Shown: positions 13,354-58,878, numbered from the stretch's first letter. The stretch: DNA of 64,000 bases from an uncultured Gammaproteobacteria bacterium (GCA_942492025.1 CALODJ010000012.1:569272-633271); one strand, 5' to 3'. The notes: generated by a model from the sequence alone, not told the origin. Numbers and translations: made by a program.

Positions 13354-13382
13354 TCGTCAATACAATTCGCTATTATGTTATG

Positions 13383-13410: not shown

Positions 13411-13427
13411 TTGATAGAATAACAACT

Positions 13428-36509: not shown

Positions 36510-36513
36510 GCCT

Positions 36514-37443: not shown

Positions 37444-37755
37444 TCAGACATCCGCCAGCTTCCACACGTCATACGCCGGTTCTTCGTAGGGATGGCTGCG
37501 CTTCAGGGCCGCAATTGCGTCCTCGATCCGGTCATCATCACAGACCATTTCTATCCTGAATTCGGCAACGGTTTCAATGTTGCCCTGCTCGCCGATATAG
37601 GGTGAGCTGCTTTCAAGGGGTCTGAACTGGCCCTGACCGAGTGTTTGCCAGCAGCAGCTGTCATAGGCACCAATTTTACCGGCGCCGGCGGTAAACAGGG
37701 CCTGCTTGACCTGTTCTGAGGCGGTTTCTGGCACGAATACACATATTTTATACAT
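37444..37755 (-). CDS. Small PII-like-fold protein related to CutA / the Nif3(YqfO) insert domain
   Basis: About 103 aa. Motifs KICVFVPE...A(G)AGKIGAYDSC and the C-terminal HPYEEPAYDVWKL resemble the CutA1 and NIF3 insert domains. Confidence 0.45.
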   Translation of the reverse strand: MYKICVFVPETASEQVKQALFTAGAGKIGAYDSCCWQTLGQGQFRPLESSSPYIGEQGNIETVAEFRIEMVCDDDRIEDAIAALKRSHPYEEPAYDVWKLADV

Positions 37756-37826
37756 GGTTTGTTTTTTGGAAAATGCGTGCAATAGCGTACAATCTACACC
37801 TTTACAGCTGACAGGAAAATACCGAT

Positions 37827-38111
37827 ATGAGTGGTGGGATTCAACTATCCGGCGAACTGATTGCCGAGGTCAAGGAAGTCCTGGTGAAACATGACGCACA
37901 GGCAGAGAATGACCTGATGACGATGCAGTATCTGTCGGCCATCATCGGCTATGTGCTCGCGCATCAGACGAATCCCGGCATGGACAAACGCGGCTTTCTC
38001 AATGATCTCGCGACATTCATGGATCAGGTTGTGAATCAGGTCGAAGCTGATCTGAAGCCACAGCAACCCTCGCAGCAGGCCTTTGGCATCTGGAAGCCGG
38101 GTGAAGGCTAA
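37827..38111 (+). CDS. Hypothetical protein
   Basis: 94 aa ORF with a plausible start, upstream of and co-directional with tpm. No recognisable motif. Confidence 0.35.
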   Translation: MSGGIQLSGELIAEVKEVLVKHDAQAENDLMTMQYLSAIIGYVLAHQTNPGMDKRGFLNDLATFMDQVVNQVEADLKPQQPSQQAFGIWKPGEG

Positions 38112-38793: not shown

Positions 38794-41751
38794 ATGACAA
38801 TACACGCTGCAGAATCAACGAATACGCTGAAAGGGCATGCCCATCCGGCCTTCGCCTGGGTAAGGTCCGAGCATATCGAATCACTCAATGTGACCGTCGA
38901 GGAGTATCGGCACATCAAGACAGGCGCCTTGCATTATCACGTTGACGCCGATAATAACGAAAATGTTTTTCTGGTCGCGTTCCGTACCGTGCCGACGGAC
39001 TCGACTGGTGTCGCCCATATACTGGAACACACCGCCCTGTGCGGCAGTAAAAAGTATCCTGTGCGTGATCCGTTCTTTATGATGATCAGGCGATCACTCA
39101 ACACGTTCATGAATGCATTCACCAGCAGCGACTGGACCGCCTACCCATTTGCCAGCCAGAACACAAAAGATTTTAATAATCTGCTGGATGTCTATCTGGA
39201 TGCGGCCTTTTTCTCCCGCCTGGATGAACTCGATTTTTTGCAGGAAGGACACCGGGTTGAATTCAGTGATGCGGATGATCCACAAAGCGATCTGGTTTTC
39301 AAGGGCGTTGTTTTCAATGAAATGAAAGGCGCGATGAGCTCTCCTGTCAGTGTTTTATGGCAGACCCTGAGTGAACGTCTGTATCCGACAACCACCTATC
39401 ATTTCAACAGTGGGGGCGAGCCGAGCCATATACCTGACCTGACATACCAGCAGCTCAAGGAATTTTATCGAACGCATTATCACCCTAGCAACGCGGTGTT
39501 CATGACCTTTGGCGATATCCCGGCAGCCGATCACCAGAAACAATTCGAGGAAAAAGCGCTGTGCCATTTCGACAAGCTCGACGTGGATATACGCGTCAAT
39601 GATGAACAGCGCTTTGACAAGCCGGTTATTGTGGAAGATGTGTACGCCTTCGACGCAGTTGAAGGCATCACCGAAGAACACAAAACCCATCACGTGATTG
39701 GCTGGATGCTGGGCCACAGCACGTCACTGGATGAGGTGATGAAATCCAATCTGCTATCGCATGTGCTACTGGAGAACAGTTCATCACCGTTACGCAAGGC
39801 GCTGGAGACGACCAAGCTGGGTACAGCACCGTCTCCCCTGTGTGGTCTGGAGGATTCGAACTATGAAATGTGCTTTATGTGCGGCATTGAGGGTAGTGAC
39901 CCCGAGCATGCGCAGGCATTTGAGGAACTTGTCATCGGCGTCCTGGAAGATGTTGCCAGCAATGGTGTTCCCCGGGAGCATGTCGAGGCTGTGCTGCACC
40001 AACTGGAGTTGAGCCAACGCGAAATCGGGGGCGATGGTTACCCGTATGGTCTGCAGCTCATCCTCAGTGGGTTGTCTGCGGCCATCCACCGCAGCGACCC
40101 TGTGCAACTGTTGAATCTGGACCCTGTGATCGAGTCCTTGCGTGACAAGATCCATGATGATAATTATATAAAGAACCTGGTGCAGGAATTGCTGCTCGAT
40201 AATCCGCATCGAGTTCGCCTGACGATGAAACCCGATATGGAACTGAGTCAGCGCAAGGAAACCGCAGAGCGCGAGCGTCTTAACAGCATGAAAGCTGCGA
40301 TGACCGCTGAGGATAAAACCCGTGTCATACAGCGTGCAGCTGAACTGGCACAACGACAGCTGCAAGTGGACAATCCGGAGGTGCTACCCAAGGTGGGGCT
40401 TGAAGATGTGCCCGCTGAAATGAAAATACCGGTAGCCACGCCAGGAATTATTTCCGCAGCTGAGTCCTCCTTGTATGCGATGGGCACGAACGGAATCGTC
40501 TATCAGGAATTGGTGCTCGATCTTCCCGCGCTCGAACCTGACCAACTCGACCTGTTGCCGTATTACTCGACCTGTCTGACCGAGCTGGGTGTCGGAGAGC
40601 GGGATTATCTTCAGGTGCAGGCCTGGCAATCGAGTATCAGTGGTGGTGTGAATGCACATACAAGCATACGCGGTTCTAGTGAAGATGTGCAGCACACGCG
40701 TGGCTATTACGTATTTGACGGCAAGGCGCTCGAACGCAACAATGAAAACCTGGCAGCGCTGATGCTGGCGACGTTTCAGTCGGTTCGTTTTGATGAGCAT
40801 GACCGTATTCGCGAAATCATTTCGCAAAGACGCGCGCGTCGTGAGCAAAGTGTCACTGGCAGCGGCCACGGCCTGGCGATGACCGCAGCTTCAAGCGGTA
40901 TGAGTCCAGTGGCCTCGCTGGGACACCGATTCAATGGGCTCGAAGGCATTCGTATTCTCAAAGCGCTTGATGACGCCAATAAAAGTGGTGCCGTGGCTGA
41001 TCTCGCTGAGTCATTTAGTAACATCCACCAGCAACTGGTCGACGCACCCAGGCAGTTTATGATTATCGGAGAAGAGGAGAGACTCGATGATCTGGTGAAC
41101 GGCTTTGAAAAAATCTGGCCCAGTGAAATATCGAGCGCAGGCTTCGAGCCGTTCAAGCTCAGCAGCGTAGATGAGACCATCAGGCAAATGTGGATTACCA
41201 ACACTCAGGTCAACTTCTGTGCACGCGCTTACAAGACAGTGGCAATGGACCATGCTGATGCAGCGCCATTGTCTGTGCTCGGCGGTTATCTCAGAAATGG
41301 TTTCCTGCACACGGCTATCCGCGAGAAAGGTGGTGCTTATGGCGGTGGTGCAGGGCATGACACCAACATCGCAGCATTCCGTTTTTTCTCCTACCGAGAT
41401 CCAAGACTGATCGAGACACTGGATGACTTTGATCGCGCAATTGACTGGATGCTGACAGGCAAACACGAATGGAGAATGGTCGAGGAAGCGATCCTCGGTG
41501 TTGTCAGCAACATAGACAAGCCGGGCTCGCCAGCGGGGGAGGCCAGGCAGGCCTTTCACAACCAGCTGCACGGACGTACACGTGAAAAACTGCAGGCCTT
41601 CAGGCAGAACGTTCTTGAAGTCACACTGGATGATCTGAAGCGCGTGACAGAGGCTTATTTGCACCCAGACAGTGCGAGCACTGCGGTTATCAGTAATGCA
41701 GCCACATTGGAACAAACAGGTAATCACGGCTTGGATGTGATCAACCTCTAG
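38794..41751 (+). CDS. M16C-family zinc metallopeptidase (PreP/presequence-protease-like)
   Basis: 985 aa with the inverted zinc motif HILEHTALCGS (HxxEH) near the N-terminus and a four-domain insulinase-like length. The stop TAG at 41749-41751 abuts the repeat terminus. Confidence 0.75.
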   Translation: MTIHAAESTNTLKGHAHPAFAWVRSEHIESLNVTVEEYRHIKTGALHYHVDADNNENVFLVAFRTVPTDSTGVAHILEHTALCGSKKYPVRDPFFMMIRRSLNTFMNAFTSSDWTAYPFASQNTKDFNNLLDVYLDAAFFSRLDELDFLQEGHRVEFSDADDPQSDLVFKGVVFNEMKGAMSSPVSVLWQTLSERLYPTTTYHFNSGGEPSHIPDLTYQQLKEFYRTHYHPSNAVFMTFGDIPAADHQKQFEEKALCHFDKLDVDIRVNDEQRFDKPVIVEDVYAFDAVEGITEEHKTHHVIGWMLGHSTSLDEVMKSNLLSHVLLENSSSPLRKALETTKLGTAPSPLCGLEDSNYEMCFMCGIEGSDPEHAQAFEELVIGVLEDVASNGVPREHVEAVLHQLELSQREIGGDGYPYGLQLILSGLSAAIHRSDPVQLLNLDPVIESLRDKIHDDNYIKNLVQELLLDNPHRVRLTMKPDMELSQRKETAERERLNSMKAAMTAEDKTRVIQRAAELAQRQLQVDNPEVLPKVGLEDVPAEMKIPVATPGIISAAESSLYAMGTNGIVYQELVLDLPALEPDQLDLLPYYSTCLTELGVGERDYLQVQAWQSSISGGVNAHTSIRGSSEDVQHTRGYYVFDGKALERNNENLAALMLATFQSVRFDEHDRIREIISQRRARREQSVTGSGHGLAMTAASSGMSPVASLGHRFNGLEGIRILKALDDANKSGAVADLAESFSNIHQQLVDAPRQFMIIGEEERLDDLVNGFEKIWPSEISSAGFEPFKLSSVDETIRQMWITNTQVNFCARAYKTVAMDHADAAPLSVLGGYLRNGFLHTAIREKGGAYGGGAGHDTNIAAFRFFSYRDPRLIETLDDFDRAIDWMLTGKHEWRMVEEAILGVVSNIDKPGSPAGEARQAFHNQLHGRTREKLQAFRQNVLEVTLDDLKRVTEAYLHPDSASTAVISNAATLEQTGNHGLDVINL

Positions 41752-41995
41752 CCCGTATTTCTCACCAGGCGGCGTTGAACACTGATAAGGCACTAATCCA
41801 TATAAGAGTATCCAGATGATCAAAAATACAGTGTGTCATTCAAATATGCCTATCACGGTTCAGGCTGGTCTTCGTGTCCGCAAGCTTGCTCTTCACTCAA
41901 ACCGTAGCTATTGCAGCGCTTTTCGCTCCAGCGCGGCGCTTACGTACACGAATCCTGCGCCTGCTGCCGTGATCCTGGTGAGAAATGCGGGCCAG
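41750..41995. repeat. Large IR1-bounded element, about 246 bp, without the core
   Basis: The termini are AGCCCGTATTTCTCACCAGGCGGCG and CCTGGTGAGAAATGCGGG. It is homologous to 16770-17077 minus the core insertion. Confidence 0.85.
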
Positions 41996-42010: not shown

Positions 42011-42307
42011 TTGGAAGAGTCGATCCACGTTTTGCTGCTCGTCATCGATTGTTACATTCCACAGGCACAGTCGCTAAAACAGAAACGCTCAGTGGTAAAG
42101 AGTCTGGTCGATCGCCTACGCGCCCGATTCAACGCCTCCGTGGCAGAAACCGGCTATTTGAATGAATGGCAGCGTGCTGTAATTGCTGTCAGCCTGGTGA
42201 GCAACAATAAACGCTACCTTCAACAGCAAAACGAGCTGATTCAGCAGCTGGTGATGGCGTCGAGCGGTAGCATTACCGTATCCGGCATCCAGCAGCACTG
42301 GCTTTGA
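42011..42307 (+). CDS. DUF503 (YlxP-like) family protein
   Basis: 98 aa with a pattern matching DUF503 (LxLxLHIPxAxSLKxKRxVVKSLxDRLRxRFNxSVAExG...WQRA). Confidence 0.55.
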   Translation: MEESIHVLLLVIDCYIPQAQSLKQKRSVVKSLVDRLRARFNASVAETGYLNEWQRAVIAVSLVSNNKRYLQQQNELIQQLVMASSGSITVSGIQQHWL

Positions 42308-42328
42308 ATACAGGCGACAAGAGACCAG

Positions 42329-42512
42329 CCCGCATTTCTCACCAGTGGGCGAGAGGATTAGGCAGAGAGTTGTCTGTGCATTGCGTATTTCGTTGATGGA
42401 ATAAAGCGTAGAAATCGTAGGGTGCGCCGTGCGCACCAAAGTCCGTAGAACAAGCGTGACAGTTGCTACGAGGTGCGCACGGCGCACCCTACCGCACTGG
42501 TGAGAAATGCGG
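42329..42512. repeat. Full type-A element: IR1 arms plus a core palindrome (42417-42491)
   Basis: CCCGCATTTCTCACCAGTG...GTATTTCGTTGATGGAATAAAGCGTAGAAATC GTAGGGTGCGCCGTGCGCACC...GGTGCGCACGGCGCACCCTACC GCACTGGTGAGAAATGCGGG. Confidence 0.9.
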
Positions 42513-42711
42513 GCTAGCGGTAGTCATATAACCAGAACGAGATGTAGTGTAATACAGTGATGCTGTGTAAAACTGGGCTTGCATTTATAGCCAGCTATCG
42601 GTTAATACCGGGATGCGGTCTGATCGAACAGGCGGTGATGGTTGTTTTCCGCCTCTATAATGCGGCTTTCTACGCAAATGAACGCAACGGGTAATGACTT
42701 AAAAGGCAGCC

Positions 42712-43779
42712 ATGAATAACGATTTACAGAATTACCAGCTGGTCGAGACCCGGCTGCAGGAAAAAATGGACAACGGTACCACACGCTGCAACCTGTGCCT
42801 GTGGCGCTGCAAGATTGGCCATGGTCAGCGTGGATTCTGCCAGGCCCATGTCAACCGCAATGGTACCCTGTATAACCTTTCCTACGGCATTCTCTCCTCG
42901 ATAGACATAGACCCGATTGAAGGCAAGCCGGTCAGACACTTTCGCCCGGGTACCCGGGTCATGTCAGTCGGCAGCTACGGCTGCAGTTTTCGCTGTGGTG
43001 GCTGCCATAATCTTGAGATTTCATGGGGCGTACGTGCACTGGATGAACTGGCCCGTGGTGAATCCACGGAAGTCTGGGTCACCCCTGAAAGCCTGATCGA
43101 GAGCGCGCAGCGAGCCGGTGTGCAGGGAATAGCCTTCACCTATTCCGAGCCGGCGGTCTGGCTGGAATATGTCATCGATGTCTGTGAACTGGCACACCAG
43201 GCTGGCCTGTACACCGTGTACGTCTCCAACAGTTTTGTCACCGATGAGGCATTGCAGCTGGTGGCGCCGCATCTGGATGTTATGTGCTCGGATATCAAAA
43301 GCATGCGCGATGACTTCTACAGGGAAATCTGCCGTCCTGCCACGGTGGATCAGGTGTTGCATGCCATAAAGACGGCACACGATCTGGGTGTTCACGTCGA
43401 GACGAGAACCAACATCATTCCTGGCAAGAACGATAACCCGGCAGAGCACTTCGCGATAGCCAGCTGGGTGCATGATAATCTTGGCGCTGACAGCCCGTGG
43501 CATATCACCCGGTTTTTTCCGGCGTACCAGTTGATGGATATTCCACCCACGCCTGATGAAGCCCTGTTCGCAGCCGCTGAACAGGGCAGGCGTGCCGGCC
43601 TCGAGCATGTTTACGTGTATAATGACAAGGGTTGCGACTGTGCCAAGGAAAACCGCCCGGTCGAGTTTTATCTGAACGCCCAGGCGGAAAATGTGCACCA
43701 GGTGAAGAAATGCTCGGCCAGCTGCTGTGGCGATGAAGGCATCTTATTGAAGAAATACGAAGAGAAATCCAATCTGTAG
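42712..43779 (+). CDS. Radical SAM enzyme, AmmeMemoRadiSam-system (AmrS)-like, PFL-activase related
   Basis: 355 aa. It has an N-terminal Cys cluster (TRCNLCLWRCKIGHGQRGFC), a Cx3Cx2C motif in GCSFRCGGCHN and a C-terminal HITRFFPAYQLMDIPPTP-like motif characteristic of this family. Confidence 0.6.
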   Translation: MNNDLQNYQLVETRLQEKMDNGTTRCNLCLWRCKIGHGQRGFCQAHVNRNGTLYNLSYGILSSIDIDPIEGKPVRHFRPGTRVMSVGSYGCSFRCGGCHNLEISWGVRALDELARGESTEVWVTPESLIESAQRAGVQGIAFTYSEPAVWLEYVIDVCELAHQAGLYTVYVSNSFVTDEALQLVAPHLDVMCSDIKSMRDDFYREICRPATVDQVLHAIKTAHDLGVHVETRTNIIPGKNDNPAEHFAIASWVHDNLGADSPWHITRFFPAYQLMDIPPTPDEALFAAAEQGRRAGLEHVYVYNDKGCDCAKENRPVEFYLNAQAENVHQVKKCSASCCGDEGILLKKYEEKSNL

Positions 43780-43793
43780 ACGTTGAGGTTGTC

Positions 43794-44078
43794 ATGACAA
43801 GAATGGTTCAGTGTGTGGTACTAAATCAAGAGGCCGAAGGGCTGGATGCGCCGCCACACCCCGGTGAGCTGGGTGTGCGCATTTACGAAAATGTTTCGAA
43901 GGAAGGCTGGAAACAATGGCTCGAGCGCCTGACAACGATTATCAATGAGAACGGCCTGAATACCGCAGATCCTAAAAATATCGAGCTGATCGAAAGGCAT
44001 ATGGTCGGCTTTTTCTTTCAGGAAGGCGATTATGGCCAGGCCCCGGCAGGCTTCCAGGCGGGTGGCGGTAAAAAGTAA
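43794..44078 (+). CDS. yggX: Fe(2+)-trafficking / oxidative-damage protection protein YggX
   Basis: 94 aa, MTRMVQCVVLNQEAEGLDAPPHPGELGVRIYENVSKEGWKQW, aligning closely to E. coli YggX. Confidence 0.85.
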   Translation: MTRMVQCVVLNQEAEGLDAPPHPGELGVRIYENVSKEGWKQWLERLTTIINENGLNTADPKNIELIERHMVGFFFQEGDYGQAPAGFQAGGGKK

Positions 44079-44116
44079 TCGACCTCGTCGATACATCGCA
44101 TTCAATTAGTTGTGCC

Positions 44117-45421
44117 TTAAGCCGATGCCAGCCTGAAAATCGGTACGGTGACAAAATTCAGTTTTGCGTGCGCTGTTCTGAGCGCCTCGGTGGCTTCATC
44201 CGACGTCTCGGCCTGCGCGAAGATGAATCCAAGATACTGGTTACCCTCGGGCAGGGGTATCAACTCATGGCCCTCACTGATCGTGATATCGATTTTTTCG
44301 ATATGGGGCACTTTCTGAGCAGCCAGTATACCTTCGACGCGTCGCAGTAGTCCTGCTCGCCGGATCGGTATCATCATCACGCCGCGGCTTTGTTCGATCG
44401 GCGTGGGCTTCATCGGCTGCCCAATGGCCAGTGACACAGTCAGCTGCTCCAGGCTCTTGTTCGTGCCGCTATCCAGCATGCGGGCGCAATCACCGCCGAT
44501 CGTACGTGAGGCGACCTCGAGTATCCAGGCATCGCTTGCGTTGAGGCGAAGCTCGGCATGCACTGGCCCGGTTCTCAAGCCAAAAGCCGTGCAAGCCTGC
44601 TGTACACGCTGTTTGACCCGGTTCAGTGAAGCAACATCGAGCTGGGACGGCGTGACGTAAATGGTTTCTTCGAAGAAAGGGCCGACTAGAGCATCCGGTT
44701 TATCGAATACAGCCAGTGTGTGCAATTCGCCCTGGTGTAAATAGCCTTCATAGGCAATCTCGATGCCGTCGATGTAGTCTTCGACCAGTACATGGCTGCG
44801 TTCAAACGCGTCCCGTGATTCCGCGATGATGTTGCCTACGCGTTCACAGGCAGTCCTGAATTCGTCTTCGTTGTTGGCGCGTATCACACCGCGGCTGGCC
44901 GACATATTGACCGGTTTGATCACGCAGGGCCACGGCAGGCCGGCCATTTGCCTGTCCAGCGGCCTTTTGATATCAATCAGACAATGACGCGGCACAGGGC
45001 ATCCGGACCGCATCAGGTGCGCTCGCGCGAGGTCCTTGCGGCGTGTAAGCCGAGCGGCTTCTGGCGGGTTGTGGGGCAGGCCAAGCCGGTTGGCTGCGAG
45101 CGCTGCCAGTTCGACGGTGCTGTCATCACTACCGATGATGCCGGCAAAAGGATCCAGTCTGGCCGCATGCAGTATGGCGCTCAACGCCGACGCATGATCA
45201 TCCAGATCAATATTGAGACCCTGGTTGACCTCTGTTGTCAGTGAGTGCTCGCCCCGGGAGGCAATCAGTACTCGCACCCCCATCTGCTGTGCAGCGCCAA
45301 TGTAAGGCGCTATGCGGTAGCTGTTGGGTTGGGATATTAAAAGCAGGCGTCTACTGATTGCTCTGGTACTGTCAGGCTGTTTATTGGGGTTCGTACTGCA
45401 TAGCCCCACAGACAGAAACAT
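44117..45421 (-). CDS. ATP-grasp domain protein (carboxylate-amine ligase-like), function unknown
   Basis: About 434 aa with a central ATP-grasp region (PWPCVIKP...SRGV, EDYIDGIE, ELRL). The start is uncertain, since the tracked ATG lies inside a hairpin; MGVRVLIAS is an alternative. Confidence 0.55.
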   Translation of the reverse strand: MFLSVGLCSTNPNKQPDSTRAISRRLLLISQPNSYRIAPYIGAAQQMGVRVLIASRGEHSLTTEVNQGLNIDLDDHASALSAILHAARLDPFAGIIGSDDSTVELAALAANRLGLPHNPPEAARLTRRKDLARAHLMRSGCPVPRHCLIDIKRPLDRQMAGLPWPCVIKPVNMSASRGVIRANNEDEFRTACERVGNIIAESRDAFERSHVLVEDYIDGIEIAYEGYLHQGELHTLAVFDKPDALVGPFFEETIYVTPSQLDVASLNRVKQRVQQACTAFGLRTGPVHAELRLNASDAWILEVASRTIGGDCARMLDSGTNKSLEQLTVSLAIGQPMKPTPIEQSRGVMMIPIRRAGLLRRVEGILAAQKVPHIEKIDITISEGHELIPLPEGNQYLGFIFAQAETSDEATEALRTAHAKLNFVTVPIFRLASA

Positions 45422-45528
45422 GGCCTGTTTCTGCCTGTGGGAAACCGGTTAAAAACAACGTGTTTTCGGCCCGGCCTCAAATGCGCAGGATATTGTCGAC
45501 TGTGGCGCCCCCAGGTGAGAATTACGGG

Positions 45529-45906
45529 CTAGCCACAACCGCCGCCTGCTGAGCCACAGGCACCGCATACACCCGATCCTCCGGTGTTGGCGAATACGTT
45601 CTTGAATACAAAACTCGCGTTTGCACCCTGGGTCTGGTAGTCGATTTCGACACCTTCAAGGTAGCTGAGCGCAACGGCGTCGACATAGACCTTTAAACCC
45701 TCTTGCTCTAGCATGCAGTCGTATTCGTTCGGCTGGTCGACAAATGTCATGCCGTAACTCATGCCACCGCAGCCACCGCCTGAAACGAATATACGAACAC
45801 CGTTGACGCCATCCTCGTTTTCAGTCAATGCCAGCAACTGCTTGACGGCCTCGGGAGAGACATTGATCTGATCGGATAATTGATTGTTGAACTGTATGTC
45901 TGACAT
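45529..45906 (-). CDS. HesB/IscA/ErpA-family iron-sulfur cluster insertion protein with an unusual Gly/Cys-rich C-terminus
   Basis: 126 aa. The start is MSDIQFNNQL. It has the conserved GGGCGGMSYGMTF and a C-terminal VCGACGSAGGGCG in place of the usual CGCGESF. Confidence 0.65.
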   Translation of the reverse strand: MSDIQFNNQLSDQINVSPEAVKQLLALTENEDGVNGVRIFVSGGGCGGMSYGMTFVDQPNEYDCMLEQEGLKVYVDAVALSYLEGVEIDYQTQGANASFVFKNVFANTGGSGVCGACGSAGGGCG

Positions 45907-46066
45907 AGCGACCTCGTCTGTGTCCAAAATATATAGGGATTCTATCAAAAATATGACAAGATGCATGTGCAAAAATTCCCGGGTCAATGAACGTTTCTGA
46001 CACTGAAACAACAGGCCGAACCTGATTCGATATCTACACCGATAACGTTGATAAGCTGATAATTCC

Positions 46067-46876
46067 ATGTCTGATCCCAATATTCATCCCACGGCCATCG
46101 TTTCGTCCCGAGCAAAACTTGCCAATGGCGTTCAGGTCGGGCCCTATGCGGTTATTCACGATCATGTCGAGATTGGCGCCAACACCACGCTTGGTCCACA
46201 TGTCGTAATCTGCGACTACGTACGTCTGGGCGCCGGCAACCGGGTGCACGCACACGCTGTGATCGGCGATCTGCCTCAGGACATATCATTTGATCCGGCG
46301 ACTGAAACCTGGGTCGAGATCGGTGATGCCAATACACTCAGAGAAGGCGTTACCATCCATCGGGCGACTTCACCATCGACAACAACCAGCGTGGGTTCCA
46401 ACGTGTATATGATGGCTTACAGCCATATCGGTCATGACTGTCGAGTAGGTGATGGTGTCATAATCACGATCAACACCAATGTGGGGGGGCATGTCGAGAT
46501 AGGCGATAAAGCTGTGCTCGGCGGCAGTGTCGCTGTGCACCAGTTTTGCCGTATCGGTCAGTTTGCTATGGTCGCTGGCCTGATCGCGGTCAGAAAAGAC
46601 GTGTTACCCTACACCATGATCGCCGGGGATCCGGCACGACATTACCGTCTCAACACGGTCGGATGTCGTCGCGCCGGTATCACGGGTGAGCGCTATCGCC
46701 GCCTGGAGCGGGCCTATCGAGCACTTCGGTCAGGCAACAAATCACTGCAGGGAATAGCTGAGAGCGAGGAAGTCGCACATTTACGTGCATGGCTGGCAAC
46801 AGACTCGAAACGTGGTCTGAGCGGATTTCTGCGCGAACAGAAACTTAGCCCGGATATCGCACGAAGGCGGATATGA
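46067..46876 (+). CDS. Second LpxA-family acyltransferase (paralog of UDP-GlcNAc O-acyltransferase)
   Basis: 269 aa with hexapeptide repeats throughout and the catalytic His context SHIGHDC, plus a C-terminal helical domain. It is clearly distinct from the lpxA at 36514-37284. Confidence 0.7.
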   Translation: MSDPNIHPTAIVSSRAKLANGVQVGPYAVIHDHVEIGANTTLGPHVVICDYVRLGAGNRVHAHAVIGDLPQDISFDPATETWVEIGDANTLREGVTIHRATSPSTTTSVGSNVYMMAYSHIGHDCRVGDGVIITINTNVGGHVEIGDKAVLGGSVAVHQFCRIGQFAMVAGLIAVRKDVLPYTMIAGDPARHYRLNTVGCRRAGITGERYRRLERAYRALRSGNKSLQGIAESEEVAHLRAWLATDSKRGLSGFLREQKLSPDIARRRI

Positions 46877-46989
46877 AAAGCCGCGGATTAGTCAATATTT
46901 CAATCAGCGGGCTAGCATTGACAAGGTATTGTTCAGTTACAGTCTGTCCTATTTGTTTTTACGAACAAGTTGGCGTCACGATTGTAGGT

Positions 46990-47115
46990 TTTGCCTCGTT
47001 TGTTGATGAAATAAAAACGGACATATCGTAGGGTGTGCCGTGCGCACCAATCGGCAGCAATCAGGCTTTTTTGTGCTGATTTCGGTGCGCACGGCGCACC
47101 CTACCTCACCTCTTT
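46990..47115. repeat. Core palindrome copy (47028-47104) with the left interior segment and a degenerate right flank
   Basis: TTGTTGATGAAATAAAAACGGACATATC GTAGGGTGTGCCGTGCGCACC...GGTGCGCACGGCGCACCCTACC. Confidence 0.8.
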
Positions 47116-47660
47116 CATCGTACACGGATACCCGAAAGGTCGGTGTCAGTTGATCGATGGTAACAACCCTGTCGGATATGCTAACGCAAGATCCACCAGG
47201 GAATTAGCACATGTTGCCTAGGTCTCCAAATGCGGTACCGAGGTACCCCCGTTCACGCGTCAACTGATTGGCGCGATATGTCAAGATAATACGATTAAAG
47301 CGCATTAAATTAAGCATTGTCAGTGTTGATTAGCAGGGTACTGATGTGGTCATCCGATCTGTTCAATCACGTCGGGTTAATGCATAAGTCCTGGTTTGAT
47401 CCGACAATGGCACTCGCGTGTTGTCAGTTGCGGTGGAGTGTCACGCCGCAAGGCAAAGGTCGATGTAGGCACATCGGCATAGGCCGGCATTCCTGATGTA
47501 TTGAGGCGCGCGACGAGAATGGCATTGATTACGAAATAAGGTTAGAAACTTCACGAACCTGTTCACGCTGGGTGTGTGACGGGGTCGGCGGCAAAGTCTG
47601 TATCTTGCTGCTGGCCCCATTTTTGTCTGTTGACATCCACGCGCAGAAGTTTGAAACCTT

Positions 47661-48731
47661 TCAATTACAGTCGATTGGCGGGCACTGCGCCGTCAGTTGC
47701 GGTCGTGCCGTATGACTCAACTGCTGTTCGGAGTCACGAATATTGCTGTCATCGGGGGATAATCGGTAGGCGCATTGAAGAGATTGCTGAGCCTGTTCAA
47801 CACAACCAGCTGCGTGCAGGGCGTAGGCAAGATTATTCCAGATCAGCGGTGTGGCCGGACTCAGCTTTGCCGCATTCACGAGCGCTGACACGGCTTCTGC
47901 ATGATGACCGGATTCATATTCGATGTTGCCAAGCGTTATCCAGGCGCTGGGGCTTTCAGGCCATTGTACGGTGGCGGCCCGGTAGGCCTCAATCGCAAGC
48001 GCGTTCAATCCGGTTTGCTCAAAAGCATAGGTTGTTTTCAGGTAGGTGGATAAACTGGCTGTCGCCGGTATCTTGCCCACAGGTACAATAACCAGGCCCC
48101 ATTTGTCGGCGCGCTGCCAGGTGTTTTCAAATGTGGCGAATGTTGTCACCCAGCGTTTTGTCGTACCTGAACGCAGCAATATTTCATTATTGGCCTTGTT
48201 GTAACCAATGACGACCGCGTAATGCCAACGCGGCCACCAGTCAAATCCGAGGTTTTGCAGTACCAGCACAGGATTACCGGCAGCGATTTCCGCCAGCAGG
48301 TCAGGCAGTGTGGGATTCAGCGGATAAGGCAGCATGCCATAGCGCCGTGAGTTTGCGACCAGTTCGACTTGCAGACTACCCTGGCGTTGCGGGATGTATA
48401 TCTGCGATGAAAGCACATCGGGCGTCACATCAATGTGGTGTGATTGCAGTACGGTTGCCAACGCAGCAGGGCCGCATTGATGCCGGGTCTGGGGAAAGAA
48501 GGGTGTGTCGGATAATTCGATTGCGGTTGGCAGTGGCTGATGGTGATCATCCAGTACGGGTCTGCTCTTGTGTGTGCCAGTGCAACCGGCCAAGCAGAGC
48601 AGGCAGGCGAGTAAGGGGGCAACACAGAGCCCTAGGAGTCTGCGCGGTAGAAAGTATCCCTGCTGCAAAAGCGCCACAGCGGTCCATTTTTCTGTTCTTT
48701 TTCGTTGCGTAGTGCCCACTATGCGCCTCAA
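47661..48731 (-). CDS. PA2778-like lipoprotein: C39-like cysteine peptidase domain plus TPR repeats
   Basis: 356 aa with a lipobox (LLCLAGC), a papain/C39-like Cys region (QCGPAALATVLQ) and C-terminal TPR helices. Confidence 0.5.
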   Translation of the reverse strand: MRRIVGTTQRKRTEKWTAVALLQQGYFLPRRLLGLCVAPLLACLLCLAGCTGTHKSRPVLDDHHQPLPTAIELSDTPFFPQTRHQCGPAALATVLQSHHIDVTPDVLSSQIYIPQRQGSLQVELVANSRRYGMLPYPLNPTLPDLLAEIAAGNPVLVLQNLGFDWWPRWHYAVVIGYNKANNEILLRSGTTKRWVTTFATFENTWQRADKWGLVIVPVGKIPATASLSTYLKTTYAFEQTGLNALAIEAYRAATVQWPESPSAWITLGNIEYESGHHAEAVSALVNAAKLSPATPLIWNNLAYALHAAGCVEQAQQSLQCAYRLSPDDSNIRDSEQQLSHTARPQLTAQCPPIDCN

Positions 48732-48792
48732 AAGAACAGAAAACTGTCCTCACCGTGCCACTTTTTCGCTACGGGTATTTCTGCCGCGCAGA

Positions 48793-48835
48793 CTCCTAGC
48801 CCGCATTTCTCACCAGGGGGCCAGAAATGCGGATT
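48793..48835. repeat. Solitary IR1 hairpin
   Basis: TAGCCCGCATTTCTCACC aggggg CCAGAAATGCGG, an IR1 terminus folded back on itself. Confidence 0.7.
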
Positions 48836-48860
48836 TAAGGCTACCATGCATTGTTATTGA

Positions 48861-49247
48861 TCAGTTTACCGGTTTAATGAACGGGAAGATGTCAGTTGCT
48901 CCAATCACATCGGTGATCACGAACACGATAAAAATGATGAGCAAGACACCGAGGATATCGCCACCTGCGGGTAACTCGCCAATCTGTTGATTTAACGTTG
49001 CTATTTCATCGTCTGTCATCAAATTGACGCGGTGGGTAAGGGTGTCTGGTTCGACACCAAGGGAGCGTAATTGCTGCTTGAGTTCTGAGCGCTCGATGGT
49101 TTCGATCAACTGTGCTCTCGCACTGGTTTTTTGTGCATTGAAAATAACTTGATCATTGCCTACCAGGGCCGCCTCTACATGGTTGAATGACAGGCTCATC
49201 AGGGCAAGTGACAGAACGATATTGAAGCATTTTTGGGCCAATTTCAT
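48861..49247 (-). CDS. PA2779-like small protein with a signal peptide and a C-terminal TM anchor
   Basis: 128 aa, immediately upstream of the PA2778-like peptidase and co-directional with it. Confidence 0.45.
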   Translation of the reverse strand: MKLAQKCFNIVLSLALMSLSFNHVEAALVGNDQVIFNAQKTSARAQLIETIERSELKQQLRSLGVEPDTLTHRVNLMTDDEIATLNQQIGELPAGGDILGVLLIIFIVFVITDVIGATDIFPFIKPVN

Positions 49248-49416
49248 CAGGATAGCTCCGTGTGGTCATTGAGGTCTTGATTCACGCTGTTTAGACCCAT
49301 CGATCTTATCACAGTGATCCCGGCCAGGGTGTTGCACATAGGCGCCCGCCTTCATGCAATATGCGGGCTACTGCGACGCTGTTGATACTTTGGCATGAAA
49401 AACCGGTACAAAATGA

Positions 49417-50172
49417 TTATTGAATGGCAAATTCTGCCATGAGTGGAATATGATCAGAAAGTCGCTTCCACGGTTTTCCATGCAGGCGTTTGCAATCGAG
49501 CAGTTCGAGGCCACGGGTATATATCCGGTCCATATTGAATATTGGCAGCCATCCTGGGAATGACCGGGCGTATTTGCCAGACGATTTCTTGAAGACTTCA
49601 TCAACATCCAGGTCATGCGTGAGATACTTCTCGGCTTTACGTGTCCAGTCATTGAAATCGCCCGCGATGATCAGAGGAGCGTCATGGGGGACGTGCGAAT
49701 CAATTCTGCTGACCAGGGTTGACCATTGGCGTTGTCGCTCCAGGCCGAAAAGGCCAAAGTGAACACAGATTGCATGCACATGCTGTCTTGTTTCGGTCAA
49801 CTCAATCGTACCGTGCAGAAGGCTGCGACTGGCCGTCTGCATCAACGATACGTCGATGTTTTCCCATTCGACGATAGGGTACTTGCTCAGGATAGCGTTG
49901 CCATGATGGCCCGTTTTATAGATCGCATTTTTCCCATAAGCATGGTGATGCCATATTTCATCGGCAAGAAACTCGAACTGGTTGTTGCTGGGCCAGTCGT
50001 CAAACCGTTTTTTTGAAAAGTCACGTTCACCATGGATTTCCTGTAACAACAGCAGGTCTGCATCGATCTGGCGAATGGATTCTTTGATATCGTGCAGAAT
50101 ATAGCTGCGATTGGTCGTGTTGAAACCCTTGTGAATGTTGTAGGTCAGAACTTTGAGAGTTTTTCTTTCCAC
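49417..50172 (-). CDS. Endonuclease/exonuclease/phosphatase (EEP) family protein
   Basis: 251 aa with N-terminal LKVLTYNIHKG, the conserved catalytic Asp/His regions (GDFND, SDHIP). Confidence 0.7.
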   Translation of the reverse strand: MERKTLKVLTYNIHKGFNTTNRSYILHDIKESIRQIDADLLLLQEIHGERDFSKKRFDDWPSNNQFEFLADEIWHHHAYGKNAIYKTGHHGNAILSKYPIVEWENIDVSLMQTASRSLLHGTIELTETRQHVHAICVHFGLFGLERQRQWSTLVSRIDSHVPHDAPLIIAGDFNDWTRKAEKYLTHDLDVDEVFKKSSGKYARSFPGWLPIFNMDRIYTRGLELLDCKRLHGKPWKRLSDHIPLMAEFAIQ

Positions 50173-50567
50173 GATCTAATAAAATCATTCAATAGTAAAA
50201 GTAACAGAACAAAGATAATGTAGCCGTTCTATATTGGAGCTATTATACTTCTGGAACATATATATCTGCTCCTGTTTATTATAGTCTCAAATGGTGCACC
50301 AATAGTAATGCGTACGGTGCTCGAAAGCAGCTACGACGCTGCGGTTGAATTGTCTTACACATTCCCTGACGGCAGGCCCCTGAAGCGATATTACCGGCCA
50401 TCATCTTGATGTACACCTTCAGTCTGGATGTGTTATCAATAATGATTCTCGTTAGCGTGCTTGTCATCATGGGATTGATTCTGTCGTCAGTCCGTACAGA
50501 CTGGGTATACGTGACAGACCGTATTAGTTTATTATCTATGCAGAATTCAGTGCGTTAATTTCAATAC

Positions 50568-51155
50568 ATGCATATTGTCAATCGAGATATCTATAATCTG
50601 CCGAATTTTGTCAGTTTTGTACGAATCCTGTTAGCGCCAGTTTTATTCTATTTCGCATTTGCTCAGGAACCCATCTGTTTCCTCGTCACACTGATGTTTT
50701 CCGCATTTACGGACGTGTTGGATGGATTTCTGGCACGCCTGTTGAATCAGATCACGGAAATGGGATCGCGCCTGGACAGCTGGGGCGATTTCACCATTTA
50801 CAGCACTATGGCTATTTGCGCGTGGATACTCTGGCCAGGCATTGTTGTTCAGGAGTTAACGTCATATGTTGTCATCGTTATCAGTATTGTTTCACCGGTA
50901 ATTGCTGGCCTGGTGAAATTCAAAAGCATCACCAGTTATCATACCTGGACAGTAAAAGTGGCTGTCGTGGTTACATTCGTTGGCTACATTCTGTTGTTTG
51001 CAGGGTGGCTCGATTGGCCCTTCAGGGTGGCGGCTGTATTCAGCGCCGTAGCTGCGGCCGAGGAAATCGCCATAACGCTGCTGAGTCGCCAAGAACATGT
51101 CGACGTCAGAAGTATATGGGCGGCGTTGAAATACAACGAAGAGGATAACACCTAG
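50568..51155 (+). CDS. CDP-alcohol phosphatidyltransferase family protein (small, 195 aa)
   Basis: It has D-G-x2-A-R...G-x3-D-x3-D (DVLDGFLARLL...GSRLDSWGDF) and about 5 TM helices. The stop TAG abuts an IR1 terminus. Confidence 0.7.
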   Translation: MHIVNRDIYNLPNFVSFVRILLAPVLFYFAFAQEPICFLVTLMFSAFTDVLDGFLARLLNQITEMGSRLDSWGDFTIYSTMAICAWILWPGIVVQELTSYVVIVISIVSPVIAGLVKFKSITSYHTWTVKVAVVVTFVGYILLFAGWLDWPFRVAAVFSAVAAAEEIAITLLSRQEHVDVRSIWAALKYNEEDNT

Positions 51156-51341
51156 CCCGCATTTCTCACCAGTGGGCGAGATGATTACGCAGTGATTTGT
51201 CTATGTGTTACGTATTTCATTGGTAGAATAAAGCGTATAAATCGTAGGGTGCGCCGTGCGCACCGAAGTCAGTACAACGAGCGTGATTTTTTTACGAAGA
51301 TGCGCGCACGGCGCACCCTTCCTCACTGGTGAGAAATGCGG
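51156..51341. repeat. Full type-A element: IR1 arms plus a core (51245-51320)
   Basis: CCCGCATTTCTCACCAGTGGGCGAGATGATTACGCAG...GTAGGGTGCGCCGTGCGCACC...CACGGCGCACCCTTCC TCACTGGTGAGAAATGCGG. Confidence 0.9.
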
Positions 51342-51361
51342 AGTGAACCGCCTATTGCGCG

Positions 51362-52235: not shown

Positions 52236-52428
52236 GCCGAAGTTCTCACCAGAGGGCGAGATGACCACGCGGAGATTTGTCCATGCGTTATGTATTTTGT
52301 GGATGGATAAAAGCGTATAAATCGTCGGGCGCGCCGTGCGCACCACTTCGCAATAATCTTGCTTGTTCTACTGACTTTGGTGCGCGCGGCGCACCCTACC
52401 TCACTGATGAGAAATGCAGCCCTTGCGT
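52236..52428. repeat. Full type-A element, slightly diverged, with a core at 52322-52400
   Basis: GTTCTCACCAGAGGGCGAGATGACCACGCGGAG...GTCGGGCGCGCCGTGCGCACC...GGTGCGCGCGGCGCACCCTACC TCACTGATGAGAAATGCAGCCC. Confidence 0.85.
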
Positions 52429-58556: not shown

Positions 58557-58878
58557 TTTTTCACCGCAAAGGCGCAAAGCTATTTTAAGTCCACAGATGA
58601 ACGCAGATAAACGCGGATTGTATGCATGGGATTTGTGCCGTGCGTGCAAGCTGAACAACTTCCCGTCATCGATGTATGTGTCGAGTGTCGTTAATAAAAA
58701 AATGCGTGATCCGTAGGGTGCGCCATGCGCACCGTTTGCACCAGTCGGGCGAGCTGTATGCTGTCGGTGCGCACGGTGCACCCTTCTACATTCTCCAAAC
58801 ATGAGAAACATCCGTGTTCATCTGCGTTCATCTGTGGACAAAAAACTTTGCGTACTTTGCGCCTTTGCTGTGAAAAAA
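58557..58878. repeat. Doubly nested IR2-variant element with a core (58713-58787)
   Basis: The outer arms are TTTTTCACCGCAAAGGCGCAAAGC and CTTTGCGCCTTTGCTGTGAAAAAA. The inner arms are CCACAGATGAACGCAGAT and ATCTGCGTTCATCTGTGG. The core is GTAGGGTGCGCCATGCGCACC...GGTGCGCACGGTGCACCC. Confidence 0.85.

What the first reader, a model, noticed from the sequence alone, without database searches (positions are those of the whole stretch)
42011..46876. An Fe-S-themed accessory block: DUF503, an AmrS-like radical SAM enzyme, YggX, convergent with an ATP-grasp ligase and an atypical ErpA-like carrier, next to a second LpxA
This 4.9-kb block is bounded by repeat elements at 41750-41995/42329-42512 and 46990-47115. 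It holds a radical SAM enzyme (4Fe-4S, Cx3Cx2C), the Fe(II)-trafficking protein YggX immediately downstream (a 14-bp gap suggests co-transcription), an unusual HesB/ErpA-type Fe-S carrier, and an ATP-grasp enzyme of unknown specificity. Radical SAM plus ATP-grasp is a recurrent pairing in peptide and metabolite tailoring systems. YggX and ErpA would be logical accessory factors for cluster delivery and protection. None of these genes belongs to the surrounding housekeeping synteny. It could be an undescribed small-molecule or peptide modification module, or a lipid A tailoring module given the adjacent LpxA2. No precursor-peptide ORF is apparent, so the substrate is open.
Basis: partly seen in the sequence, partly recalled or inferred. 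Interest (0 to 1): 0.6.

Follow-up and report, generated by a model that had tools for sequence, protein, structure and literature searches.

The report
Conserved radical-SAM/YggX and Fe-S carrier/ligase cluster
The genes are real. Four of them (a radical SAM enzyme, the iron protein YggX, an unusual iron-sulfur carrier and an amino-acid-ligase-type enzyme) form a cluster of unknown function kept together in many sulfur-oxidising gammaproteobacteria, while DUF503, the second LpxA and the repeats are only local neighbours.

Summary
All six genes are present at the stated coordinates and match the stated families. The block is not an accessory island. The whole window is core chromosome, and the "bounding" repeats are two genome-wide intergenic repeat families.

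Comparison with 80 species-representative genomes shows a conserved four-gene core made of two convergent pairs:
- rSAM then YggX: adjacent in 76 of 76 loci with enough flank.
- A-type carrier then ATP-grasp: adjacent in 56 of 56 loci.
- The two pairs lie together in 56 of 62 loci, although the flanking genes differ.

DUF503 and LpxA2 occur only in the window's own sub-lineage.

The rSAM belongs to a discrete, highly conserved clade of the uncharacterised AmmeMemoRadiSam family (76-92% identity within the clade, 47% or less outside it). No AMMECR1 or Memo gene was found in 1.3 Mb of related loci. The carrier has a clade-wide CGxCG tail instead of the canonical CGC. The ATP-grasp enzyme is of the L-amino-acid-ligase type.

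There is no conserved micro-ORF and no SPASM or RRE domain, so a RiPP reading is unsupported. The lipid A reading is also unsupported.

The function is unknown. My best guess is a dedicated iron and Fe-S supply set for a multi-cluster rSAM enzyme, working with an amide-forming ligase. Interest is moderate.

The parts
42712..43779 (+). Core gene 1: radical SAM enzyme (355 aa) from a divergent clade of the AmmeMemoRadiSam / PFL-activase-like family. It carries an N-terminal C26x2C29x3C33x9C43 motif, the SAM-cluster motif C91x3C95x2C98, and C-terminal C308xC310...C334x3C338C339.
   Evidence: - TIGR04337 scores 233.6 bits against a cut-off of 220; PFLA, NrdG and YjjW are far below their cut-offs.
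- Identity is 76-92% across 80 species.
- The clade is discrete: the next relatives are 47% identical or less.
- The model has pLDDT 83.9 and its best fold match is PFL-AE 3C8F, TM 0.80.
43794..44078 (+). Core gene 2: YggX (94 aa), the Fe(II)-trafficking / oxidative-damage protection protein. It lies 14 nt downstream of the rSAM on the same strand.
   Evidence: - PF04362 scores 105 bits and NF003817 scores 106 bits against 74.
- It directly follows the rSAM in 76 of 76 loci with at least 400 nt of flank, with gaps of 6-185 nt.
44117..45421 (-). Core gene 3: ATP-grasp enzyme of the L-amino-acid-ligase type (ATPgrasp_N + ATP-grasp_4 + LAL_C2). It is the second gene of the minus-strand pair.
   Evidence: - Domain calls come from Pfam.
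- The best solved relative is the L-amino acid ligase BL00235, 3VOT, E = 1.9e-34.
- It is present convergent to YggX in 56 of 62 loci with at least 3 kb of flank.
- Protein-level conservation begins near residue 23.
45529..45906 (-). Core gene 4: A-type Fe-S carrier (125 aa) with an ErpA-like GGGCxGxxYG core and a non-canonical tail (...CGACGSAGGGCG). It is the first gene of the minus-strand pair.
   Evidence: - TIGR00049 scores 79.9 bits against 58.8, but the ErpA, IscA and SufA equivalog models all fall below their cut-offs.
- The CGxCG tail is conserved in all 61 relatives.
- It sits directly upstream of the ATP-grasp gene in 56 of 56 loci.
- It is only 33-42% identical to my recalled E. 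coli ErpA sequence.
42011..42307 (+). Neighbour, not core: DUF503 protein (98 aa, TTG start).
   Evidence: - PF04456 scores 89 bits.
- It is found between PreP and the rSAM only in L006-L010, L012, L047 and L092, plus the near-identical assemblies L001-L003.
46067..46876 (+). Neighbour, not core: second LpxA paralogue. It is the first gene of a lineage-specific insertion, 46067-52105 (lpxA2, PA2778 peptidase, PA2779, EEP, CDP-alcohol phosphatidyltransferase, TIGR04219 OMP).
   Evidence: - NF003657 scores 297 bits against 226.
- The block is present only in L001, L002, L006, L007, L009, L010 and L012.
- In other collinear loci the carrier is followed directly by RND-MFP-ABC.
41750..41993 (.). 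MITE-like element with terminal inverted repeats (AGCCCGYATTTCTCACCAG), lying between PreP and DUF503. Its first bases overlap the PreP TAG stop codon.
42327..42515 (.). A second copy of the same MITE family, with a nested REP-like hairpin (42417-42492). It lies between DUF503 and the rSAM gene.
   Evidence: - Its terminal inverted repeats are 100% complementary.
- It is absent from the otherwise identical spacer of L001, so it is an insertion polymorphism.
45512..45530 (-). Solo MITE end that abuts the TAG stop codon of the carrier gene, in the carrier/ATP-grasp spacer.
   Evidence: -.
- The carrier's C-terminus matches that of the aligned relatives, so the protein is not altered.
47028..47104 (.). 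REP-like hairpin (GTAGGGTGYGCCGTGCGCACC and its complement) downstream of lpxA2.
   Evidence: -.
- It is one of 17 arms spread across the window.

Best explanation
The finding sits in ordinary core chromosome. It contains a conserved four-gene cluster built from two convergent two-gene operons.

**Operon 1.** A divergent AmmeMemoRadiSam / PFL-activase-like radical SAM enzyme with two extra Cys-rich sites, co-transcribed with YggX.

**Operon 2.** An ErpA-like A-type Fe-S carrier with a CxxC tail, co-transcribed with an L-amino-acid-ligase-type ATP-grasp enzyme.

**Shown**
- The family assignments.
- The two strict gene pairings.
- Their conserved juxtaposition across many genera despite different flanks.
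- The absence of AMMECR1 and Memo nearby.
- The status of DUF503, LpxA2 and the repeats as local, lineage-specific features.

**Inferred mechanism**
- YggX (an Fe(II) donor or protector) and the dedicated carrier load or repair the several Fe-S clusters of the rSAM enzyme.
- The ligase makes an amide-linked product from amino acids, such as a dipeptide or pseudopeptide. In most relatives this product may also be N-formylated by the upstream formyltransferase-like enzyme.
- That product is either the rSAM substrate or a thiol or peptide co-ligand for cluster handling.
- The final product is a small molecule or a protein-bound modification. It is not a RiPP and not lipid A.
For: **Family assignments:**

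**Pairings, counted on one genome per species**
- YggX follows the rSAM in 76 of 76 loci.
- The carrier precedes the ATP-grasp gene in 56 of 56 loci.
- Both pairs are present together in 56 of 62 loci with at least 3 kb of flank, and within 1 kb of each other in 46.

**Flanks change while the four genes stay together**
- At least 11 different gene families lie beyond the carrier.
- Individual contexts differ widely:
  - SelO and LysR-leuCDB;
  - IalB and a methyltransferase with ZnuA;
  - SoxYZ and a sigma-54 two-component system.
- Three loci retrieved from the ATP-grasp side also carry rSAM-YggX.

**Strength of conservation**
- The rSAM is 76-92% identical across relatives. In the same loci LpxA is 61-66% and TPMT about 50%.

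**A recurring Fe-S helper theme**
- The sister rSAM clade sits next to NifU_N scaffolds.

**Independent transcription of the second pair**
- An extended -10-like motif (TGCTAGAAT or TGCTAAAAT) recurs upstream of the carrier gene in about 10 relatives each. This is consistent with the carrier/ATP-grasp pair having its own promoter.
Against: - The two pairs are convergent, so they cannot be co-transcribed.
- Unrelated genes of 1-6.6 kb are tolerated between the two pairs in about 10 loci.
- In 6 loci the second pair is not within 3-10 kb.
- All 80 loci are the closest relatives (rSAM identity 75% or more), so part of the linkage could be inherited synteny.
- No experiment or publication links any of these proteins to each other.
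- YggX and the carrier could be the genome's general housekeeping copies rather than dedicated factors.
- AMMECR1 and Memo could be encoded elsewhere in these genomes. This was not testable here.
- The ligase substrate is unknown.
Confidence: 0.45

Rival explanations
1. Neutral synteny. rSAM-YggX and carrier-ligase are two functionally unrelated housekeeping operons that happen to have stayed neighbours by descent in this gammaproteobacterial radiation.
For: - The orientation is convergent and insertions between the pairs are tolerated.
- The second pair is absent from the flank in 6 of 62 loci.
- In many genomes the cluster is embedded in a long collinear housekeeping segment from bamA to RND.
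- The sister rSAM clade has neither YggX nor the ligase nearby.
Against: - The four genes persist together in at least a dozen different flanking contexts, while neighbours such as PreP, TPMT, RND, LysR-leuCDB and lpxA2 come and go.
- Three of the four products handle iron or Fe-S, a thematic coherence that is unlikely by chance.
Confidence: 0.3
2. Canonical AmmeMemoRadiSam system. The rSAM works with AMMECR1-family and Memo-family proteins encoded elsewhere in the genome, and the local neighbours are only generic Fe-S support.
For: - The protein passes the curated TIGR04337 cut-off and PGAP gives it that name.
- Relatives at 36-40% identity include true rSAM-Memo-AMMECR1 fusions.
Against: - tblastn found no AMMECR1 or Memo homologue in the window or in 1.24 Mb of 88 related loci.
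- None appears in any precomputed annotation of the neighbourhoods.
- The score is only 13 bits above the cut-off.
- The clade is separated by a gap from 65% to 47% identity.
- The C-terminal Cys motif is changed from CxxC...CxxC to CxC...Cx3CC.
Confidence: 0.15
3. A RiPP or peptide-tailoring cluster, in which the rSAM and the ATP-grasp enzyme modify a ribosomal precursor peptide.
For: - The rSAM plus ATP-grasp pairing is known from RiPP systems (general knowledge; reviews listed).
- The carrier has a Gly/Cys-rich C-terminal tail that superficially resembles a core peptide.
Against: - No micro-ORF of 15-90 aa is conserved in any intergenic space of the cluster across 80 loci.
- In the window the intergenic spaces are 14, 38, 107 and 160 nt, or are filled by a MITE.
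- The rSAM has no SPASM, twitch or RRE domain.
- The ATP-grasp is of the L-amino-acid-ligase type with an LAL_C2 domain.
- No conserved protease or exporter lies adjacent.
Confidence: 0.03
4. A lipid A or envelope tailoring module working with LpxA2, or a mobile accessory island bounded by the repeats.
For: - lpxA2 is adjacent and divergent from the carrier gene.
- Repeats flank the block.
Against: - lpxA2 occurs next to the cluster in only 5 of the 80 species loci, and it arrived with a separate 6-kb insertion.
- The repeats are genome-wide intergenic elements: 12 and 17 arms in 64 kb.
- There is no GC anomaly.
- There is no integrase in the block, and the only tRNA gene is 25 kb away.
- The whole window is housekeeping.
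Confidence: 0.03

Closest known systems
AmmeMemoRadiSam system radical SAM enzyme (TIGR04337; function uncharacterised)
   Same: - It passes the curated HMM cut-off.
- It shares the N-terminal Cx2Cx3Cx9C motif, a PFL-AE-like core and a four-Cys C-terminal segment.
   Different: - No AMMECR1 or Memo partner was found in any of about 90 neighbourhoods.
- The clade is discrete, at 47% identity or less to other members.
- The C-terminal motif is CxC...Cx3CC instead of CxxC...CxxC.
- It has new fixed partners: YggX always, and the carrier with the ligase usually.
Pyruvate formate-lyase activating enzyme (PflA, PDB 3C8F) and other glycyl-radical activases
   Same: - It is the best structural match, with TM 0.80 over the PflA chain.
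- It has the same Cx3Cx2C placement.
   Different: - It scores far below the PFLA, YjjW and NrdG cut-offs.
- It has an extra 75-residue N-terminal Cys domain and a 50-residue C-terminal Cys segment.
- No glycyl-radical enzyme gene is nearby.
E. coli mutY-yggX arrangement (YggX encoded downstream of an Fe-S enzyme gene; general knowledge)
   Same: - YggX is encoded immediately downstream of, and probably co-transcribed with, a gene for an Fe-S enzyme.
- The YggX here passes the equivalog model and has a Cys at position 7.
   Different: - The upstream partner is a radical SAM enzyme rather than the DNA glycosylase MutY.
- The pairing was seen in 76 of 76 loci of this clade.
ErpA / IscA / SufA A-type Fe-S carriers
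   Same: - It has the PF01521 fold and an ErpA-like GGGCxGxxYGxTF motif with the first ligand Cys.
   Different: - It fails the ErpA, IscA and SufA equivalog cut-offs.
- The C-terminal CGC is replaced by CGxCG, usually followed by a Gly run and a terminal Cys.
- It is encoded in an operon with an ATP-grasp ligase.
L-amino acid ligases (BL00235/3VOT, BacD/YwfE, DdaF)
   Same: - It has the same three-domain architecture, including LAL_C2.
- E = 1.9e-34 to BL00235.
   Different: - It is below every curated equivalog cut-off.
- Its context is Fe-S genes, not an antibiotic gene cluster.
- Its substrate is unknown.

Membership tests
AmmeMemoRadiSam system (rSAM component, TIGR04337) | Whole-protein HMM score at or above the curated cut-off | tested here: met
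   233.6 bits against a cut-off of 220, with the alignment covering residues 14-306.
AmmeMemoRadiSam system (rSAM component, TIGR04337) | Occurs with, or fused to, AMMECR1-family (PF01871) and Memo-family (PF01875) proteins | tested here: not met
   - tblastn with seven AMMECR1 or Memo domains from fused relatives found nothing in the window or in 1.24 Mb of 88 loci.
- None appears in the precomputed Pfam annotation of the neighbourhoods.
- Presence elsewhere in the genomes could not be tested.
Glycyl-radical enzyme activases (PflA, NrdG, YjjW) | Equivalog HMM score above the cut-off | tested here: not met
   - PFLA 46.5 against 231.8.
- YjjW 46.1 against 250.
- NrdG2 31.7 against 131.
- NrdG 19.9 against 126 (all).
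YggX / Fe(2+)-trafficking protein | PF04362 and NF003817 scores above their cut-offs | tested here: met
   105 bits against 27, and 106.4 bits against 74.
ErpA (NF010147 equivalog) | Equivalog score above the cut-off | tested here: not met
   - 76.2 bits against 117.
- 33-42% identity to my recalled E. coli ErpA sequence.
A-type Fe-S carrier (TIGR00049 / PF01521) | Family HMM above the cut-off | tested here: met
   79.9 bits against 58.8, and 61.9 bits against 26.3.
A-type Fe-S carrier (TIGR00049 / PF01521) | Canonical three-Cys ligand set, C...CGC | tested here: not met
   - The first Cys is present.
- The C-terminal CGC is replaced by CG[AGST]CG in all 61 relatives, most with an extra terminal Cys.
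L-amino acid ligase type ATP-grasp | ATPgrasp_N + ATP-grasp_4 + LAL_C2 architecture and similarity to solved L-amino acid ligases | tested here: met
   - Pfam scores are 34, 116 and 56 bits.
- 3VOT matches at E = 1.9e-34.
- Catalytic activity and substrate were not tested.
RiPP biosynthetic cluster (rSAM and/or graspetide type) | A conserved precursor-peptide ORF next to the enzymes | tested here: not met
   All ORFs of 15-90 aa in four intergenic zones of 80 loci were clustered. Only tails of flanking genes and shadow frames recur.
RiPP biosynthetic cluster (rSAM and/or graspetide type) | SPASM/twitch auxiliary-cluster domain or RRE (PqqD-like) domain in the rSAM | tested here: not met
   Only Radical_SAM and Fer4_12 were detected.
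LpxA (second copy) | Equivalog HMM above the cut-off | tested here: met
   NF003657 scores 297.1 against 226, and TIGR01852 scores 275.8 against 231.
Genomic island / mobile element | Island-specific boundaries, a mobility gene, a compositional anomaly, or variable presence as a unit | tested here: not met
   - The repeats are genome-wide.
- There is no integrase, and the only tRNA gene is 25 kb away.
- GC is 0.51-0.59 in the block against 0.49-0.55 around it.
- The cluster is collinear in relatives.

The most novel reading that the evidence does not exclude
The four proteins may form a dedicated metallocluster or cofactor workshop, not a generic Fe-S supply line. In this reading the multi-cluster rSAM enzyme acts on an Fe-S species or on the Cys/Gly-rich tail held by the CxxC carrier, comparable in logic to NifB, HydG or LipA. 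YggX feeds iron, and the ligase, with the formyltransferase of the relatives, supplies a small peptide ligand. This would give YggX its first defined client and would give an AmmeMemoRadiSam-family enzyme its first proposed chemistry.
Probability: 0.1. Interest if true: 0.8.

Novelty: new variant of a known kind. Interest (0 to 1): 0.45.

Why it matters
- Neither YggX nor the AmmeMemoRadiSam-family radical SAM enzymes has an established molecular function, as far as I know. Six full-text searches of the paper library returned nothing on the function of the rSAM family and no paper linking YggX to these gene partners.
- An rSAM-YggX operon seen in every one of 76 informative species loci, from a clade detected in about 410 species, and usually next to a specialised Fe-S carrier and an amino-acid ligase, points to a concrete partnership that can be tested.
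- It also shows that the PGAP name "AmmeMemoRadiSam system" is applied here to proteins with neither system partner found in their neighbourhoods.
- The organisms are abundant marine and vent sulfur oxidisers and symbionts, so the product may matter for iron and sulfur physiology there.
- If the cluster is only inherited synteny, the finding is ordinary.

Tried and rejected
- **Micro-ORF (RiPP precursor) search.** I searched the four intergenic zones of 80 loci and found nothing conserved. The window spacers are too short or are occupied by a MITE.
- **Rfam scan of 41-48 kb at E = 0.1.** No hit.
- **Promoter and terminator consensus scan.** Counts were at or below the shuffled expectation.
- **PADLOC defence models.** Only weak, generic rSAM similarity to viperins.
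- **AMMECR1 and Memo by tblastn.** None found.
- **K-mer search for shared regulatory boxes upstream of the carrier and rSAM genes.** Only an extended -10-like motif for the carrier. No Fur-like or IscR-like box was evident.
- **Reaching distant ATP-grasp relatives.** The best 120 database hits were all within the clade at 63% identity or more. Whether the ligase-carrier pair exists without the rSAM therefore remains open.
- **Nearest outgroup rSAM clade (P0168).** Its contexts are different: NifU_N, MerB/MerR and NifH/NifDK-like genes. The YggX, ligase and carrier association is therefore clade-specific.
- **Literature searches** (AmmeMemoRadiSam, AMMECR1+Memo+radical SAM, AmrS, YggX+radical SAM+ATP-grasp, YggX neighbourhoods). 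No functional study was found. The only relevant note concerns the SaoD/DsrE-related family, which is seen in relatives but not in the window.

Full report
**1. What is in the sequence**

| Gene | Coordinates | Evidence |
|---|---|---|
| DUF503 | 42011-42307 (+) | PF04456, 89 bits |
| Radical SAM enzyme | 42712-43779 (+) | C91x3C95x2C98; TIGR04337 233.6 bits against cut-off 220 |
| YggX | 43794-44078 (+) | NF003817, 106 bits against 74; starts 14 nt after the rSAM stop |
| ATP-grasp | 44117-45421 (-) | ATPgrasp_N + ATP-grasp_4 + LAL_C2 |
| A-type Fe-S carrier | 45529-45906 (-) | TIGR00049, 79.9 bits against 58.8 |
| Second LpxA | 46067-46876 (+) | NF003657, 297 bits against 226 |

- The rSAM scores far below the cut-offs for PflA, YjjW and NrdG.
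- The carrier is 125 aa from the ATG at 45906. The mechanical 183-aa ORF is an over-extension.
- The carrier is below the cut-offs of the ErpA, IscA and SufA equivalog models.
- The second LpxA is 40% identical to the first one at 36487-37284.
- The rest of the window is core housekeeping. It holds gyrA, serC, pheA, hisC, tyrA, aroA, cmk, rpsA, lapB, pyrF, lpxH, dapE, glnD, map, the bamA-skp-lpxD-fabZ-lpxA block, TPMT, a PreP-type M16 peptidase, an RND pump and malic enzyme.

**2. The repeats are not boundaries**

- The inverted-repeat element (ends AGCCCGCATTTCTCACCAG) has 12 ends across the 64 kb. The hairpin GTAGGGTGCGCCGTGCGCACC has 17 arms. Chance expectation for both is about 0.
- The copy at 42327-42515 is absent from the otherwise identical spacer of L001, an assembly that encodes an identical rSAM protein. 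It is a MITE insertion polymorphism.
- GC content shows no island signal.
- The block contains no integrase, and the only tRNA gene is 25 kb away.

**3. Comparative genomics**

I scanned one genome per species (GTDB) with an alignment of the rSAM.
- The scan found 410 species with a relative.
- I fetched the best 80 loci. They are Thiogranum, Thiohalobacter, Thiohalophilus, Thiotrichaceae, Methylococcales and unclassified gammaproteobacterial MAGs.
- Window proteins were then mapped onto these loci by tblastn.

Results of the mapping:
- YggX follows the rSAM on the same strand in 76 of 76 loci with enough flank. Gaps are 6-185 nt.
- The ATP-grasp gene lies convergent to YggX in 56 of 62 loci that have at least 3 kb beyond YggX, and within 1 kb in 46 of them.
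- The carrier gene lies directly upstream of the ATP-grasp gene in 56 of 56 loci.
- Where the two pairs are separated, the inserts are unrelated genes: a transposase, lipoproteins, sensor kinases and transporters.

The flanks differ widely while the four genes stay together:
- At least 11 different gene families lie beyond the carrier.
- Independent look-ups show four distinct contexts:
  - SelO | cluster | LysR-leuCDB;
  - IalB, Fmt-like | cluster | methyltransferase, ZnuA, in the Gigantopelta symbiont;
  - PreP, SaoD-like | cluster with GGDEF and RIO1 inserted | ABC;
  - SoxYZ | cluster | sigma-54 two-component system.
- Three loci retrieved from the ATP-grasp side all contain rSAM-YggX.

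In one large group of genomes the cluster is embedded in a long collinear segment: bamA-skp-lpxD-fabZ-lpxA-orf-TPMT-PreP-...-cluster-RND-MFP-ABC. The window shares this order. The claim that the genes lie outside the housekeeping synteny is therefore wrong.

Genes that are not part of the conserved core:
- DUF503 is found in only about 9 of the 80 species loci.
- lpxA2 is found in only 5 of them. It belongs to a 6-kb insertion (46067-52105) specific to the window's sub-lineage. The insertion carries lpxA2, a PA2778-family peptidase, PA2779, an EEP-family protein, a CDP-alcohol phosphatidyltransferase and a TIGR04219 outer-membrane protein.

Genes that relatives have and the window lacks:
- A formyltransferase-like gene (PF00551) sits directly upstream of the rSAM as the nearest gene in 30 of 62 loci.
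- A 112-aa SaoD/DsrE-family gene (NF040913, 180 bits; 85-95% identical among copies) is present in 24 loci.
- Neither is anywhere in the window.

**4. The radical SAM enzyme**

- It is the most conserved gene of the region. Identity is 76-92% across loci where LpxA is 61-66% and TPMT about 50%.
- In a library clustered at 50% identity, the clade collapses to one full-length representative (65%). The next full-length relatives drop to 46-47%, and the bulk of the family lies near 40%.
- That bulk includes true rSAM-Memo-AMMECR1 fusions, so the wider family is the genuine AmmeMemoRadiSam family.
- tblastn with AMMECR1 and Memo domains from those fusions finds nothing in the window or in 1.24 Mb of related loci.
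- The N-terminal Cx2Cx3Cx9C motif is family-wide.
- The C-terminal four-Cys segment is changed from CxxC...CxxC to CxC...Cx3CC. This change is shared with a small sister clade.
- The sister clade sits in quite different contexts, such as NifU_N, MerB/MerR and NifH/NifDK-like genes, and never with YggX or the ligase.
- The AlphaFold model (pLDDT 83.9) matches PFL-activating enzyme best, with TM 0.80 over the PflA chain. There is no SPASM domain.

**5. The carrier and the ligase**

- The carrier keeps the ErpA-like GGGCxGxxYGxTF core.
- In all 61 aligned relatives it ends ...FKNVFAxxGGxGxCGxCGxx(G)nC[GAS], or in a shorter tail.
- The atypical tail is therefore a clade character and not an artefact of the MITE end that abuts its stop codon.
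- It is only 33-42% identical to my recalled E. coli ErpA sequence.
- The ATP-grasp enzyme's closest solved relative is the L-amino acid ligase BL00235 (3VOT, E = 1.9e-34). BacD and other L-amino acid ligases follow.
- No curated equivalog model claims the ligase.

**6. Interpretation**

What is shown:
- There are two strict gene pairs.
- They have a conserved convergent juxtaposition.
- The flanks are variable.
- AMMECR1 and Memo are absent from the neighbourhoods.

What is inferred:
- The four genes act together.
- YggX (iron) and the CxxC carrier (Fe-S) would serve the multi-cluster rSAM enzyme.
- The ligase would supply an amide-linked substrate or ligand. In most relatives a formyltransferase may also contribute.

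Main rival:
- The main rival is inherited synteny of two unrelated operons.
- It cannot be excluded, because all loci examined are the nearest relatives and the two pairs are separable.

Rejected readings:
- The RiPP reading fails its defining tests. There is no precursor, no SPASM or RRE domain, and the ligase is of the L-amino-acid-ligase type.
- The lipid A reading rests on a lineage-specific neighbour.
- I found no publication on the function of this rSAM family or of this gene combination.

**7. Verdict**

- The cluster is an undescribed, widely conserved variant context for a named but uncharacterised rSAM family.
- It offers a testable client for YggX.
- Interest is moderate (0.45) and the mechanism is speculative.

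Noticed in passing
window 10445, 41750, 45530, 51154 (and 8 further ends: 16770, 17080, 41993, 42327, 42515, 48798, 51344, 52234): - The MITE ends are usually preceded by CT, which gives CTAG.
- In four cases that TAG is the stop codon of the adjacent gene: rpsA 10446, PreP 41751, the carrier 45529, and the CDP-alcohol phosphatidyltransferase 51155.
- This suggests CTAG/TAG target preference, as in IS5-type elements (my recollection, not tested).
   Followed up: partly
window 42417-42492, 47028-47104, and 15113-15189, 16909-16978, 19681, 51244-51321, 52324-52399, 58713-58786, 61354-61429: - A REP-like hairpin family (GTAGGGTGCGCCGTGCGCACC, about 35 nt, then its complement) is present in many intergenic spaces.
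- At least two copies (42417-42492 and 16909-16978) are nested inside the MITE.
   Followed up: partly
window 46067-52105: - A lineage-specific 6-kb insertion lies between the carrier gene and the RND pump.
- It holds a second LpxA (40% identical to the first), a PA2778-family C39 peptidase with TPR repeats, a PA2779/DUF6627 protein, an EEP-family phosphatase or nuclease, a CDP-alcohol phosphatidyltransferase and a TIGR04219 outer-membrane beta-barrel protein.
- It may be an envelope-lipid remodelling set in its own right.
   Followed up: partly
L007 9656-9994; L073 8743-9081; about 24 loci in all. Fmt-like: for example L066 470-1336 and L086 8985-9827.: - Many relatives have a 112-aa SaoD/DsrE-family protein upstream of the rSAM. 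It has a CxxC motif, scores 180 bits on NF040913, and is 85-95% identical between genera.
- Many also have a poorly conserved formyltransferase-like protein (30-55% identity) in the same position.
- The window has lost both or never had them.
   Followed up: partly
L089 7630-9017; L090; L091 7371-13209: - The sister clade of the rSAM (about 46% identity, same CDC...CC tail) lies next to a NifU_N scaffold gene whose end overlaps its start.
- It also lies next to MerB-like and MerR genes, and next to a NifH/NifDK-like set with a second rSAM gene.
   Followed up: no
window 37444-37782 (-) and 37827-38111 (+): Two small ORFs (112 and 94 aa) between lpxA and TPMT have no Pfam or NCBIfam hit. They are conserved in position and sequence (56-89% identity) across the collinear loci.
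   Followed up: no
window 44117-45421 (-): - Many database homologues of the ATP-grasp enzyme are called at 388 aa, which corresponds to starting at Met47 of the window protein.
- Protein-level conservation across loci begins near residue 23, so those shorter calls are probably truncated.
   Followed up: yes
window 13380-14258 (+) and 14255-14968 (+): Two adjacent ORFs (292 and 237 aa) between pyrF and lpxH have no NCBIfam match at E <= 1e-10.
   Followed up: no
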